A stretch of 63,893 nucleotides of DNA, the filler included, from Chrysochromulina tobinii (Eukaryota), in the NCBI GenBank assembly GCA_001275005.1. It is 6 parts of 6 records of this genome, joined end to end, with 100 filler letters (N's around TTAATTAATTAA, not from the genome) between each part and the next. Parts side by side here need not be neighbours in the genome. Positions count along the whole stretch, not along the records: positions 1 to 16,079 come from JWZX01000238.1; 5 more parts are not named here. The stretch is one strand, 5' to 3'. The notes beneath the pieces were generated by a model that searched no databases, was not told the DNA's origin, and saw only the letters and a list, made by a program, of their open reading frames with translations. The position numbers and the translations under genes were made by a program. Below, one piece after another: positions 6,117 to 9,677 of the stretch. The stretch's first letter is position 1. The number at the start of each line of letters is the position of its first letter.

Positions 6117-9100
6117 TCAGAATCGTCGGAAATCGCCTTGTTCAAGCGGTTTCGTCGCCGGGGCTACGGAAGGGAGAACGGTTCGCCACTTTGACTCATC
6201 CAGGCGAACGGTTCGCCACTTTGACTCATCCACGACGCGCTTCCAGTACTCGTCGCCATCCCTAGCGTTCTGCTCTAGCTGCTCGAGGCGGTCACTGTCC
6301 TGAGTCATTTGTTCATTATTGTAGAGCTTGAAAAACTCGAGCTTCGGCCACTGCTTCTCAAGAAGCTGCTTCTCGAGAAGCCACGCCGGAGGCACCGTGC
6401 CGGTCAATCGGTTGTTGGTCAAATCCACATTTTCGAGCGCCCGGCAGTTTGCGAGCGTGTCCGGAATCGCACCGCTCAGCTGATTGTGGTTCAGGAACAA
6501 ATCCTTAAGCTTCGTCAGGCCCGCTTCCTTGTGCAACCGAGTGAGCTCCTCAAGCCGTGCCTCATCCTTTTTGCCCATCTTGGAGCCGCTTTTCTTGGCC
6601 TCTTCTTTCCGTTTCGCGAGCTCATTCATCTCCTCCTTCTCCATGGCCGACAGGCCACCGAACATCGATGGGATGCAGCCCGTCAGCTTGTTGTTGTCGA
6701 GACAAAGGCGCTCTAGATTTTTGAGCTCGCCGAGCTCTGCAGGCAGCTCGCCAGTGAGCTCGCAGAAGTTGAGGCTCAAAGTTTTGAGCTTCGTCATGAG
6801 CTTGAAGGCCCTCGGGATCGGACCTTTGAGGCTATTATAGCCCAGATGTAGGGTGTCCATGTCTGCACAGGTCGCGAGCTTCTCCGGGAGCGTGCCGTGA
6901 AGTCCACGGCCCTTGAGGTCGAGCCTACGCAGCCGGCGGCAATGGAGCTGCTGGTCCCGCTTGTCGATGAGCAGGTCGTGCAGCGAGCAATTGAAGTCAT
7001 TCAACTTTGACTGCCGCAACGAATCCTCAGTGACAGGAGGCCAATGTTTTTTTCTTGTCCCCTTCCACGCAGCCTGCCACGCAGCCGAAAAGCCTGCCAG
7101 CGAAAGCTCAAGTAGAGGGCACTCGTCCTTCTGCAGCAGCTCTTGTAGCTTCTCCTGATGCCCATCGAGCGTTGCGTAGGGGCACTTGAGGCAGAGCACA
7201 ATGCCCCTACCCGCGCGACAAAGTGCTTGCTCGGTGAGCTGGCCCTGATGCTCAACCGTCTCCGGCTCGAGCGCACCGAGGATGCGCGCTCCCTTGTAAA
7301 GCACGTGAAGATCGTGCTTGAGATCAAAGAGTGGCTTGACGTGCAGCTGCAGCTCGGCGAGGATCCAGCCCGAGTCCTCAAGGTTGAGCCAAAGGTTGAG
7401 AAGGACGTCGCGGTTACCTCCGGCTTTAATTGCGTCGTAGTCGGGCTTGATGCGATCCTTGGCGCGGCAGACAATTGCGCGAGACAAGTGGGGCGATACC
7501 CCCTGATAGCCCTTGTGCTGGTCGTTGCCGGTCCAATGTCGCAGCTTGCCGTCGTCTCCGCTGGTGAGGAATCTCATGGCGACGGCCAACGCGTGCAAGG
7601 ACGGAAAGACAAGGGTGCAACGCACGAGATCGCAAAGCTTCCGGTAGTTGCCGGCATATTCTTCAGCAACCTTGGCGCAGCAGCGCGGCACGCCCTTGAT
7701 TGAAGGGCCCTTGTGTGTCACCTTGCCCTTCGCATCTGGGCACGTTTCCTCAACATGCGTCTGGACCGCCGTCATAACCTTCTCAAGCACTGGAACGGCT
7801 TTCTTCGCCTTGTGGATCAACGCCAGTAGAGTGTTGAGAGCATCGTCGGCGCCGGCGCCACTGGGTTGCACCATTTCCACATTGAGCTTGTTCACCTCTT
7901 CGCAGCGCACCTTCATGTACTCGAGTGCGTCTTTCTTGATTGCCGGTGCATCCTCCTTGTTGCGCTGCTTCTCGTCTTTGAGCAGCTTTGCGTACGCTGC
8001 GTCGAAACGGAAGACCGACTGGCTTAGGAGCGGGTTGTACTGCGAGATCGCGTTGTCACGCCGGTCAGGGTATCTCTTCTCCAACTTCTCCAAGTCCTTC
8101 GCCTTCTCCGAAATTTTCTTCTCGAGCTTTGTGATTTCCTTGTTGTGATTAGCAAGGTCTTGCTCGCGCATCAACTCTGTACCCATTTCCTTCATCTCCT
8201 TGAGCTGATGTGCGAGTTCATCGATGGTGGTCCTCATCCGAGTCTGCGCGTTGAGCATGGCCGAGCATTCCTCCACGCACAATGCCACAGGCACAACGGA
8301 CTTGCTCAGGTTGGACGAATCGAAGTGTTTGAGCAGCGCGTCAGCATCCAGAGGGTCGGGTTCCACTTCCTGCTGCTGCTCTTGCACCTTCGGCGGTTGA
8401 AATTCACCGTCTCGTGAGGAGTCGTCGGATCCTTTGACCGAGTGCAAGGCAACCCTCAGAGCCTCGTCTTGAACCGAATGGTCGAAGAGGAACATCTCGT
8501 CATCTTCCCGGAGCTCCTTTTCGAATCTATCGTGGTGCGATCGGTCCACTTGACCCGGCAGGACCTGCCCATTCGCCGCGCACGGGAACATGTTGTCAAA
8601 CTCTTTGCGTACGAAGTCCACGTTGACATCCCGCCCTGTGGTGAGCGCGCGCAAGCGGCCTCGGCTGTACACCATCTCCCAGGGCGCAAAGCAGCCGCAG
8701 ACAAAGACCTGGTAGTTGTGGTTCGTGCGCGCGCGACTCATCAGTTCTCTCAGGAACTTATCTGGCTCTTTGCCCATTGTGTCGTAGACGACATGGTAGC
8801 CAGCGACGAACGCACGGTCAACAAAGGCGTCCGTCATCTCCTTCTTTTTGTGCGGCCAGAGCATCTTCTGTCGCACGAGGAACTGCGAGCGCATGGTGGC
8901 GCTCGAGAGCGCGAGGTAGTGACCGTCGACAGTGAACCCGTCCTCTTGGAACTGGCCGTCGGGCGAAATCCACTTGGTAGGCTTCAGCCGGTCGCCATAC
9001 TCCTCCTGCACCGACGGCAACTTCGCTGCGTGAGCCCCGGAGATGCACAGGCGGTACTCGCGGCAGTACATTCGACACTCATCGGGGTCGAGGTGTACAA

Positions 9101-9677
9101 ATTCCTCCGGCGACCAGCCCTTGAGCCTGTACAGCTCCTTGAGCGCGTAGCTCTTGCCGCATCCAGGCGGGCCATACATTATGATCAGCCGCGGCCTGTG
9201 TGGTTTCTGAGGAGGCACCCTCCCCTTGGTGACGTCGTCGTAGTATTTCTCCGCATCCTTCAGATCTTCGACGATATTGATCGCGCCGCCTAACGGAGTC
9301 GCGGCCCCGCTCAGGTCGACGATGGAGTAACGTGCGGGGTGCACCTCGATCTGGATGCGGGCGGCAGGCAGCAAGAGCGCGAGCTCTCGATAGAGGGGCG
9401 CCAGGACCAGCTCGCGCAGCTCAGCCCCTATCACATGAACGCGTACGACTCCACCGCCGCCTTCGCCGCCCTCGCCGCCCTCGCTGCCCTCGCTGCCCTC
9501 GCCGCCTCTGAGCCGAGCTCTTTCTGCACCGCCTGGCTGCAACGCTGGAACCGCAACTGGCGTGCCGGTGCCGAAGAGGGGGCTGGCAGTCTCTCGACCC
9601 GTGCGCGAATATGTGATGCGCACGCCGCAAGCAAACGTATTGACCCGCGGCGGCGGCGGTGGCGTAGTTGCTTCCAT
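6117..9677 (-). CDS. Multidomain protein: Zeta-toxin-like P-loop kinase + coiled coil + RelA/SpoT-like nucleotidyltransferase + LRRs
   Basis: Uninterrupted 1186-aa ORF. Zeta/AAA_33-like: LIIMYGPPGCGKS, HLDPDECR, VVYDTMG, R..R...TGR.V. RelA/SpoT-like: K...R...K..E.Y, DLVRCT, RAKDR, GGNRDVLLNL, ELQLH. Repeated LxxLxLxxNxLxGxIP LRRs at the C-terminus. The true start is uncertain. Confidence 0.85.
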   Translation of the reverse strand: MEATTPPPPPRVNTFACGVRITYSRTGRETASPLFGTGTPVAVPALQPGGAERARLRGGEGSEGSEGGEGGEGGGGVVRVHVIGAELRELVLAPLYRELALLLPAARIQIEVHPARYSIVDLSGAATPLGGAINIVEDLKDAEKYYDDVTKGRVPPQKPHRPRLIIMYGPPGCGKSYALKELYRLKGWSPEEFVHLDPDECRMYCREYRLCISGAHAAKLPSVQEEYGDRLKPTKWISPDGQFQEDGFTVDGHYLALSSATMRSQFLVRQKMLWPHKKKEMTDAFVDRAFVAGYHVVYDTMGKEPDKFLRELMSRARTNHNYQVFVCGCFAPWEMVYSRGRLRALTTGRDVNVDFVRKEFDNMFPCAANGQVLPGQVDRSHHDRFEKELREDDEMFLFDHSVQDEALRVALHSVKGSDDSSRDGEFQPPKVQEQQQEVEPDPLDADALLKHFDSSNLSKSVVPVALCVEECSAMLNAQTRMRTTIDELAHQLKEMKEMGTELMREQDLANHNKEITKLEKKISEKAKDLEKLEKRYPDRRDNAISQYNPLLSQSVFRFDAAYAKLLKDEKQRNKEDAPAIKKDALEYMKVRCEEVNKLNVEMVQPSGAGADDALNTLLALIHKAKKAVPVLEKVMTAVQTHVEETCPDAKGKVTHKGPSIKGVPRCCAKVAEEYAGNYRKLCDLVRCTLVFPSLHALAVAMRFLTSGDDGKLRHWTGNDQHKGYQGVSPHLSRAIVCRAKDRIKPDYDAIKAGGNRDVLLNLWLNLEDSGWILAELQLHVKPLFDLKHDLHVLYKGARILGALEPETVEHQGQLTEQALCRAGRGIVLCLKCPYATLDGHQEKLQELLQKDECPLLELSLAGFSAAWQAAWKGTRKKHWPPVTEDSLRQSKLNDFNCSLHDLLIDKRDQQLHCRRLRRLDLKGRGLHGTLPEKLATCADMDTLHLGYNSLKGPIPRAFKLMTKLKTLSLNFCELTGELPAELGELKNLERLCLDNNKLTGCIPSMFGGLSAMEKEEMNELAKRKEEAKKSGSKMGKKDEARLEELTRLHKEAGLTKLKDLFLNHNQLSGAIPDTLANCRALENVDLTNNRLTGTVPPAWLLEKQLLEKQWPKLEFFKLYNNEQMTQDSDRLEQLEQNARDGDEYWKRVVDESKWRTVRLDESKWRTVLPSVAPATKPLEQGDFRRF
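6176..6232. repeat. 27-bp direct repeat (30-nt period) duplicating DESKWRTV near the C-terminus
   Basis: gaacggttcgccactttgactcatcca at 6176 and 6206. Confidence 0.9.

What the first reader, a model, noticed from the sequence alone, without database searches (positions are those of the whole stretch)
6117..9677. Zeta-toxin-like kinase + RelA/SpoT-like synthetase + LRR in one eukaryotic protein: candidate intracellular sensor-effector system
Seen in sequence, in one stop-free ORF: (i) a P-loop small-molecule kinase at about 8440-9200 (GPPGCGKS; DPD; YDTMG; R..R...GR lid); (ii) a coiled coil at about 8060-8260; (iii) a nucleotidyltransferase at about 7290-7720 with K...R...K, DLVR, GGNRD and ELQLH in the order of RelA/SpoT synthetase motifs; (iv) about seven LxxLxLxxNxLxGxIP LRRs at about 6310-6930. 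There is no signal peptide or TM segment. Established: Zeta/PezT kinases and small alarmone synthetases (toxSAS) are both toxin families in bacterial conflict systems, and C-terminal LRRs are the sensor modules of NLR-type receptors. Inference: a ligand-gated double-effector protein that phosphorylates and/or pyrophosphorylates nucleotides on sensing a trigger such as a giant-virus protein. It would be NLR-like in logic but without an NB-ARC/NACHT domain. I know of no described protein with this architecture, but I cannot search.
Basis: partly seen in the sequence, partly recalled or inferred. Interest (0 to 1): 0.9.

Follow-up and report, generated by a model that had tools for sequence, protein, structure and literature searches.

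The report
Algal LRR-coupled alarmone-type enzyme with kinase
A freshwater alga carries an intact gene that joins a zeta-toxin-fold kinase to an overlooked coiled-coil/alarmone-synthetase-fold/leucine-rich-repeat module shared with other protists, and it likely works as a sensor-controlled defence enzyme, though its activity and trigger are untested.

Summary
The ORF is real: 1186 aa, from a Chrysochromulina haptophyte, intact in three paralogues and covered by unspliced contigs from RNA libraries. Both folds hold in predicted models. The kinase matches zeta/PezT/AvrRxo1 (Z 17.1/15.8/14.0). The middle domain matches RelA/SpoT-type synthetases (Z 14.4; other nucleotidyltransferases 6.2 or less), and its nearest solved relative by sequence profile is the (p)ppApp toxin Tas1 (E 7e-9). 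Coiled coil + Tas1-like domain + LRR is a broad protist family (318 representatives; named members in a pelagophyte, a diplonemid and a choanoflagellate) that Pfam misses and that I did not find in print. The kinase is a lineage-specific add-on, taken from a stand-alone kinase family. Against a plain toxin reading: the G-loop tyrosine needed by tested toxic synthetases is Asn here (a clade-wide trait, other catalytic residues kept), LRR hypervariability is not significant, and nothing ties the gene to infection. Best reading (0.42): an LRR-gated cytosolic pyrophosphokinase used in defence, with an integrated host kinase. The scan's notes held no earlier report of this protein or family.

The parts
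6117..9677 (-). Whole ORF, 1186 aa (P0001)
   Evidence: exact protein seen on 12 contigs; near-identical Chrysochromulina parva protein P0016
5800..9734 (-). Probable transcription unit, unspliced (strand inferred from the ORF; contigs do not show it)
   Evidence: contigs of 4 RNA-library runs end at 9724-9734 (4 of 4) and 5800-5813 (3 of 4); one 3401-nt contig spans 6330-9730; no joints
9346..9677 (-). Copy-specific N-terminal leader (aa 1-111), unrelated to the leaders of the paralogues; aa 78-110 weakly resemble MSS51_C
   Evidence: Pfam MSS51_C E 9e-4, below cut-off
9338..9345 (-). Shared 5' breakpoint of the duplicated cassette, an 8-base palindrome (GGTGCACC)
   Evidence: identity with loci L004-L010 starts at window 9345
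8433..9341 (-). Zeta-fold P-loop small-molecule kinase (aa 113-415); K175, D197/D199, D299-T300, R339/R343/R349 intact
7878..8357 (-). Helical/coiled-coil module (aa 441-600), conserved upstream of the synthetase domain in the family
   Evidence: two-sequence profile finds 14 of 69 other upstream regions, 0 of 71 reversed controls; iterated profile 66 of 71, self-inclusive
7263..7877 (-). RelA/SpoT-fold, Tas1/Apk-like synthetase domain (aa 601-805); K661 R665 K669 D683 R686 K740 R742 E775 Q777 H791 kept
7413..7415 (-). Asn755 at the G-loop position where most relatives have Tyr
   Evidence: Tyr in 74, Asn in 25, other in 4 of 103 aligned domains
6948..7262 (-). Cap/degenerate LRR region (aa 806-910), the most variable part among paralogues
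   Evidence: (dN/dS 0.88-1.30)
6303..6932 (-). LRR solenoid, six canonical 24-residue repeats plus one degenerate

Best explanation
The gene encodes one intact protein in which a zeta-fold kinase is fused to a coiled-coil/Tas1-like synthetase/LRR module, and it likely acts as a cytosolic, LRR-gated defence enzyme. Shown: the ORF, the fusion, kept catalytic motifs, three intact paralogues, RNA-library cover. Predicted: both folds. Inferred: at rest the coiled coil and LRR would hold the synthetase off; on a trigger the domain would move pyrophosphate from ATP to the 3'-OH of an acceptor, draining nucleotides or blocking an RNA and so arresting the cell. Because the G-loop has Asn, the acceptor is probably not the usual purine nucleotide. 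The kinase is a host enzyme added in this lineage and likely serves as an integrated partner (a guarded bait, or the maker of the ligand or acceptor), as integrated domains do in plant NLRs (recalled), rather than as a second toxin.
For: Synthetase fold. Closest solved sequence relative is Tas1, E 7e-9, against 0.41 for the small alarmone synthetase YwaC. Prokaryotic relatives found sit in toxin contexts: C-terminus of a VgrG protein (L014), a phage gene after the portal gene followed by a 69-aa ORF and an HD hydrolase (L015), the layout described for Apk2 (PMC10083569, passages), and an eCIS-core protein (P0125). 53 of the 98 hits of 400 aa or more carry Pfam LRRs; none shows an HD, NB-ARC, NACHT or zeta domain. 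Named members include a diplonemid and a choanoflagellate, lineages without plastids (recalled), which argues against a plastid role. In the Asn group the donor-site and metal residues are kept in 24-25 of 25. Three unlinked copies, about 89-91% alike, dN/dS 0.62-0.80, all open; neutral drift would give 13.5 stops on average and none in 0 of 500 simulations. One allele carries a paralogue-type tract. Precedent for a fused sensor-synthetase: CapRel (PMC9712102, passages).
Against: Replacing the G-loop Tyr by Ala abolished toxicity in four toxSAS (10.1101/575399, passage) and phage defence by CapRel (PMC9712102); by Phe it impairs catalysis (PMC11782079); this protein has Asn. By structure the model is as close to housekeeping RelP/RelQ (Z 13.7-14.4) as to Tas1 (Z 12.1), and the tree separating protist from prokaryotic toxin domains has support of only 56. 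Exposed LRR positions are not significantly more variable (22 of 30 vs 35 of 66, p 0.07; among paralogues p 0.32). No link to infection was found, no PADLOC match. Neighbouring genes are ordinary. Residue conservation is inflated because hits were chosen by likeness to the query. 45 of 98 long hits show no Pfam LRR. 10 of 66 full-looking members have a myristoylation-like start, which fits membrane signalling as well.
Confidence: 0.42

Rival explanations
1. Non-immune signalling enzyme: the module makes a pyrophosphorylated second messenger at membranes in response to stress or Ca2+/cAMP signalling, and the kinase is a cofactor kinase like plant NADKc.
For: Myristoylation-like starts in P0006, 9 further family members and the stand-alone kinase P0203; a Dpy-30 motif in one stand-alone kinase; an IQ motif before the kinase in paralogue P0003; apparent expression in culture RNA libraries; NADKc precedent (10.1101/521658, passages).
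Against: Toxin-context relatives; fast copying with high dN/dS; the three copies lost the acylated start seen in P0006.
Confidence: 0.2
2. Switch model: the Asn-type synthetase domain no longer transfers pyrophosphate but binds ATP and acts as the conformational switch between LRR and coiled coil, as NB-ARC does; the kinase or the coiled coil is the output.
For: Asn755; the order coiled coil, nucleotide-binding domain, LRR mirrors CC-NLRs; kinase is the part most alike between P0001 and P0006 (70% vs 64% for the synthetase).
Against: Catalytic Asp and Glu are kept in 25 of 25 Asn-type domains, and 8 Tyr-type rows nest in the same clade, which suggests tuning of a working site; most of the family has Tyr and no kinase.
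Confidence: 0.17
3. One reading: both enzymes are toxic outputs released together by the LRR.
For: Both active sites are kept in all close copies checked; zeta fold; bacterial zeta is reported toxic in yeast (PMC3062530, passage); zeta-like clusters occur in giant viruses.
Against: Relatives of the kinase occur without coiled coil, synthetase or LRR (0 of 12 hit those profiles), so it needs no such brake there; identity to zeta toxins is 11-13%; P0006 has Gly after the Walker A Lys.
Confidence: 0.15
4. Artefact or decaying chimera: a mis-assembly, or a passenger fusion copied by chance.
For: Unrelated leaders on each copy; broken copies exist (P0005 cluster ends at the start of the synthetase core; L006 leaves frame after the kinase); dN/dS near 1 in parts.
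Against: Same fusion in several assemblies, in named genome proteins and in a 58%-identical relative; single RNA-library contig across all domains; all 25 internal gaps among the three copies are multiples of 3, no stops.
Confidence: 0.05

Closest known systems
Tas1/Apk1 and Apk2 (p)ppApp synthetase toxins
   Same: Fold; best sequence-profile match in PDB (E 7e-9); shared K-x3-R-x3-K...Y-x-G...D-L-x-R signature; relatives in VgrG and phage toxin-immunity-hydrolase layouts
   Different: Eukaryotic, inside an LRR protein, no delivery domain, no adjacent immunity or hydrolase gene, G-loop Asn, activity untested
Fused CapRel (toxSAS with built-in phage sensor)
   Same: Synthetase fold (Z 12.9) with a C-terminal candidate sensor in one chain
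   Different: Sensor is an LRR, not a pseudo-zinc finger; lacks the essential G-loop Tyr; extra coiled coil and kinase
Zeta/PezT, AvrRxo1 and plant NADKc kinases
   Same: Fold (Z 14-17), Pfam Zeta_toxin, Walker A, Asp pair, lid arginines
   Different: 11-13% identity; no antitoxin; large insertions; acceptor unknown
NLRs, including fungal NLRs with a RelA/SpoT effector domain
   Same: Coiled coil, nucleotide domain, LRR order; an added host-type domain; RelA/SpoT domains are reported in fungal immune receptors (PMC10197012, passage)
   Different: No NB-ARC or NACHT; the synthetase-fold domain is central; a later survey did not recover the fungal RelA_SpoT clusters at high coverage (10.1101/2022.03.16.484565, passage)
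Plastid RSH1-4 of algae and plants
   Same: Synthetase fold in an alga
   Different: No hydrolase domain found, no plastid-type leader apparent, present in plastid-less protists; the two named Chrysochromulina paralogues are absent from the algal RSH survey's supplements

Membership tests
RelA/SpoT-type synthetase superfamily | Synthetase fold | tested here: met
   (predicted model)
RelA/SpoT-type synthetase superfamily | Donor-ATP basic residues and catalytic Asp/Glu | tested here: met
   K661, R665, K669, D683, R686, E775 near-invariant in 103 rows; equivalence to FaRel2 R64/K66/K74/D90/R95/E145 (PMC11782079) is by motif order
RelA/SpoT-type synthetase superfamily | G-loop Tyr stacking the acceptor base | tested here: not met
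   Asn755 in P0001 and all 11 close sequences; Tyr in 74 of 103 family rows and in prokaryotic relatives
RelA/SpoT-type synthetase superfamily | Pfam RelA_SpoT match | tested here: not met
   no hit for P0001; relatives P0104 and the L015 protein do hit above cut-off
Apk/toxSAS toxins | Nearest by sequence to Tas1 | tested here: met
Apk/toxSAS toxins | Adjacent antitoxin, immunity or hydrolase gene | tested here: not met
   neighbours are an unknown protein and an exostosin glycosyltransferase; an in-chain brake by the LRR is untested
Apk/toxSAS toxins | Toxic (p)ppApp synthesis or tRNA pyrophosphorylation | not testable with these tools
   needs assay
Zeta toxin family | Fold and Pfam PF06414 | tested here: met
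   (13 of 13 aligned relatives)
Zeta toxin family | Catalytic Asp and acceptor-binding Thr (zeta Asp67, Thr118; PMC3062530) | tested here: inconclusive
   D197/D199 and T300 are conserved candidates; no residue-level superposition was available
Zeta toxin family | UDP-GlcNAc kinase activity and epsilon antitoxin | not testable with these tools
   no antitoxin gene recognised nearby; substrate needs assay
NLR (STAND) receptors | NB-ARC or NACHT domain | tested here: not met
   none in P0001 or in 98 long relatives
NLR (STAND) receptors | Diversifying selection on the LRR binding face | tested here: inconclusive
   p 0.07 and 0.32, few sequences
Plastid long RSH | Hydrolase domain with synthetase | tested here: not met
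   no HD domain by Pfam

The most novel reading that the evidence does not exclude
Protists from several supergroups have an unrecognised class of intracellular immune receptor-enzymes, coiled coil + Apk-type synthetase + LRR, built from a bacterial toxin domain, that make (p)ppApp-like or new pyrophosphorylated products on sensing infection; this Chrysochromulina gene is a kinase-integrated member of an Asn-type clade with a new acceptor.
Probability: 0.3. Interest if true: 0.92.

Novelty: new variant of a known kind. Interest (0 to 1): 0.74.

Why it matters
Antiviral mechanisms of microalgae are poorly known (PMC12489294, abstract start and passages), and a 2022 review knew of no report of (p)ppApp in plants or algae (PMC10107265, passage). 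A Pfam-invisible family that couples a Tas1-like domain to LRRs in haptophytes, a pelagophyte, a diplonemid and a choanoflagellate would add alarmone-type chemistry to the bacterial conflict modules reused by eukaryotes. It is directly testable: the genes are intronless here, the host genus is cultured, and natural Tyr-type and Asn-type members can be compared.

Tried and rejected
No whole genome is held, so copy number per genome is a lower bound. Pfam, PHROGs, NCBIfam and PADLOC gave nothing for the synthetase domain. A profile from full-length relatives was swamped by LRR hits; a domain-only profile worked. Viral contigs: no relative of the kinase or of the synthetase domain; both scans need near-exact peptides, so they are weak. 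Plasmids: no match. Atlas hits for the synthetase domain scored under 0.9, leads only. The complex prediction of coiled coil/synthetase with LRR was not available, so LRR docking is untested. The careful tree did not finish; quick trees only. AAA+ ATPase reading of the P-loop rejected: matches cover only Walker A and the fold is zeta-like. Transposon reading of the cassette: no terminal inverted repeat in the window region. Literature: 9 answered full-text searches plus one search listed no paper on this architecture; supplements of PMC6881373 lack KOO23714 and KOO32324; the PMC7229694 table, cut when stored, lists only Rsh1/Rel/SpoT types for Aureococcus and Emiliania. Supplements of PMC3482391 and PMC3153485 and bioRxiv supplements were not seen and might list members; subscription papers are not searched.
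Full report
Observation. The stretch 6117-9677 (minus strand) is one open frame of 1186 aa. Pfam gives Zeta_toxin (E 8.6e-11) and LRR families, nothing for the middle domain. 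The exact protein is on 12 contigs; its cluster holds a Chrysochromulina parva protein, and two paralogous clusters hold C. tobinii proteins KOO23714.1 and KOO32324.1, annotated only as LRR proteins. GC3 is even across the domains (0.72-0.78) and within the range of neighbours.

Is it one gene? Fourteen RNA-library runs hold 90% or more of the ORF's words (they may be one campaign). In the 4 of 14 laid, depth over the ORF is 7-33 against about 5 or less on the flanks, contigs end at 9724-9734 and mostly 5800-5813, one 3401-nt contig runs from the LRRs through the kinase, and no joints appear. These are contigs from runs chosen for holding the gene, so they show cover, not level or strand. A relative at 58% identity (P0006) has the same fusion.

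Kinase. The model (pLDDT 87.8, 13 sequences) matches zeta (Z 17.1, rmsd 3.1, 208 aligned), PezT (15.8) and AvrRxo1 (14.0), ahead of polynucleotide kinase (12.9) (Foldseek agrees). Identity is 11-13%, so the substrate is open. Searches found 13 near-length and 7 longer relatives; 12 proteins outside the fused clusters hit neither the coiled-coil nor the synthetase profile, though some are fragments on short contigs. A plant zeta-domain protein is a calmodulin-dependent NAD kinase (10.1101/521658, passages), so a zeta fold in a eukaryote does not imply a toxin.

Synthetase domain. The model (pLDDT 91.3, 84 sequences) matches RelP (Z 14.4, rmsd 3.2, 162 aligned), B. subtilis SAS2 and SAS1, CapRel (12.9) and Tas1 (12.1); the first row outside this superfamily scores 6.6. 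By sequence, Tas1 was the only PDB hit of the single domain (E 0.29) and the best of a domain profile (E 7e-9). Prokaryotic relatives found are a VgrG C-terminal domain, a phage gene followed by a small ORF and an HD hydrolase, like the Apk2 layout (PMC10083569, passages), and an eCIS-core protein. A quick tree puts these apart from the protist proteins with weak support, 56, so origin from the toxin lineage is a likely reading, not shown.

The wider family. The domain finds 318 representatives at E<=1e-3 (150 listed). Of the 98 listed hits of 400 aa or more, 53 carry Pfam LRRs, a few carry TPR, WW, SPRY or C1, one RelA_SpoT, and none zeta, HD, NB-ARC or NACHT. The helical module upstream is also shared: a two-sequence profile finds 14 of 69 others and 0 of 71 reversed controls. 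Of 20 members looked up, those with an organism name were Aureococcus, Namystynia, Didymoeca (two) and Triparma; the first three have LRRs, Triparma TPRs. A kinase profile hit 1 of 155 family proteins, P0006. So the old unit is coiled coil + synthetase + LRR, and the kinase joined in one lineage.

The G-loop. Of 103 aligned domains (47 of the 150 listed hits were dropped for short cover), 74 have Tyr, 25 Asn and 4 other residues at position 755. All Asn rows fall in one 37-row clade (SH-aLRT 99, quick tree) that also holds 8 Tyr rows, and they keep the basic and acidic catalytic residues in 24-25 of 25. In tested toxSAS this Tyr is needed: Ala variants are non-toxic (10.1101/575399, passage), CapRel Y155A loses defence (PMC9712102, passages), Phe impairs catalysis (PMC11782079, passages). 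The Asn is therefore not recent decay, but it leaves the product open: a changed acceptor, or ATP binding without transfer.

Evolution in the host. Thirteen loci were fetched. They show three unlinked full copies sharing only window 9345 to about 6087-6199 at 89-91% identity, each fused in frame to a different leader at the same 8-base palindrome. dN/dS is 0.62-0.80 overall, 0.41-0.58 in the synthetase, 0.88-1.30 in the cap region (simple counting, no control genes). No copy has a stop, against 13.5 expected, and all 25 internal gaps are in frame. Locus L001 carries codons 683-718 of the L008 type, which is gene conversion or an assembly mix. Broken copies also exist. This birth-and-death pattern fits conflict genes (general knowledge) but does not prove the role. 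LRR surface variation is not significant.

Mechanism. Shown: gene, fusion, motifs, family, copying. Predicted: folds. Inferred: cytosolic location, LRR gating, pyrophosphate transfer, defence role, kinase as integrated partner. It works like CapRel or an NLR in logic; it is not an NLR (no STAND domain) and fails one defining residue of toxSAS. Odds: gated defence enzyme with integrated kinase 0.42, signalling enzyme 0.20, switch 0.17, double toxin 0.15, artefact 0.05.

Novelty. Ten full-text searches listed no description of this architecture or of the family. RSH surveys name only plastid types, Mesh1 and scattered divergent synthetases in eukaryotes (PMC3153485, PMC6881373, passages; supplements). 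RelA/SpoT domains in fungal NLRs are mentioned (PMC10197012, passage), and bacterial polymorphic-toxin versions are known (PMC3482391, passage). All papers were seen as passages, none whole. The scan's notes gave one adjacent lead, a stand-alone synthetase in a haptophyte giant virus, not tested here. Verdict: a new variant of a known kind, interest 0.74, with most of the value in the family.

Noticed in passing
L005:9764-10000 and 13145-13372: In this paralogue the cassette is flanked by a 237-nt duplication (90% alike) that encodes an IQ-like motif; fragment P0206 reads LRR end, this linker, then kinase start, so a head-to-tail copy or an assembly loop exists.
   Followed up: partly
window 9338-9345: All copies begin at the same 8-base palindrome and recruit different host leaders; the copying mechanism is unexplained.
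   Followed up: partly
window 7524-7631 versus L001: A paralogue-type tract over codons 683-718 in another allele; P0012 also looks mosaic.
   Followed up: partly
P0005 cluster; L006:1826-3079: Truncated copies that keep the kinase (with or without the coiled coil) and lose the synthetase core and LRR.
   Followed up: partly
window 56834-57835 (-): ORF with an NAD:arginine ADP-ribosyltransferase domain (PF01129, E 1e-11) behind a histone-H1-like stretch.
   Followed up: no
window 47141-48379 (-): NYN-domain nuclease ORF beside a SAP-domain ORF.
   Followed up: no
window 19508-22885 (-): Protein with cyclic-nucleotide-binding, RGS and protein-kinase domains.
   Followed up: no
P0096, P0132, P0181, P0183, P0194: Relatives with two synthetase-fold domains, or with TPR/C1 instead of LRR, suggesting further architectures.
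   Followed up: partly
L015:1571-3836: Bordetella phage PHB04 gene trio (synthetase domain, 69-aa ORF, HD hydrolase) annotated as hypothetical; resembles Apk2/immunity/hydrolase.
   Followed up: partly
window 1-2612: Long low-complexity repetitive ORF, open in several frames, no Pfam match.
   Followed up: no
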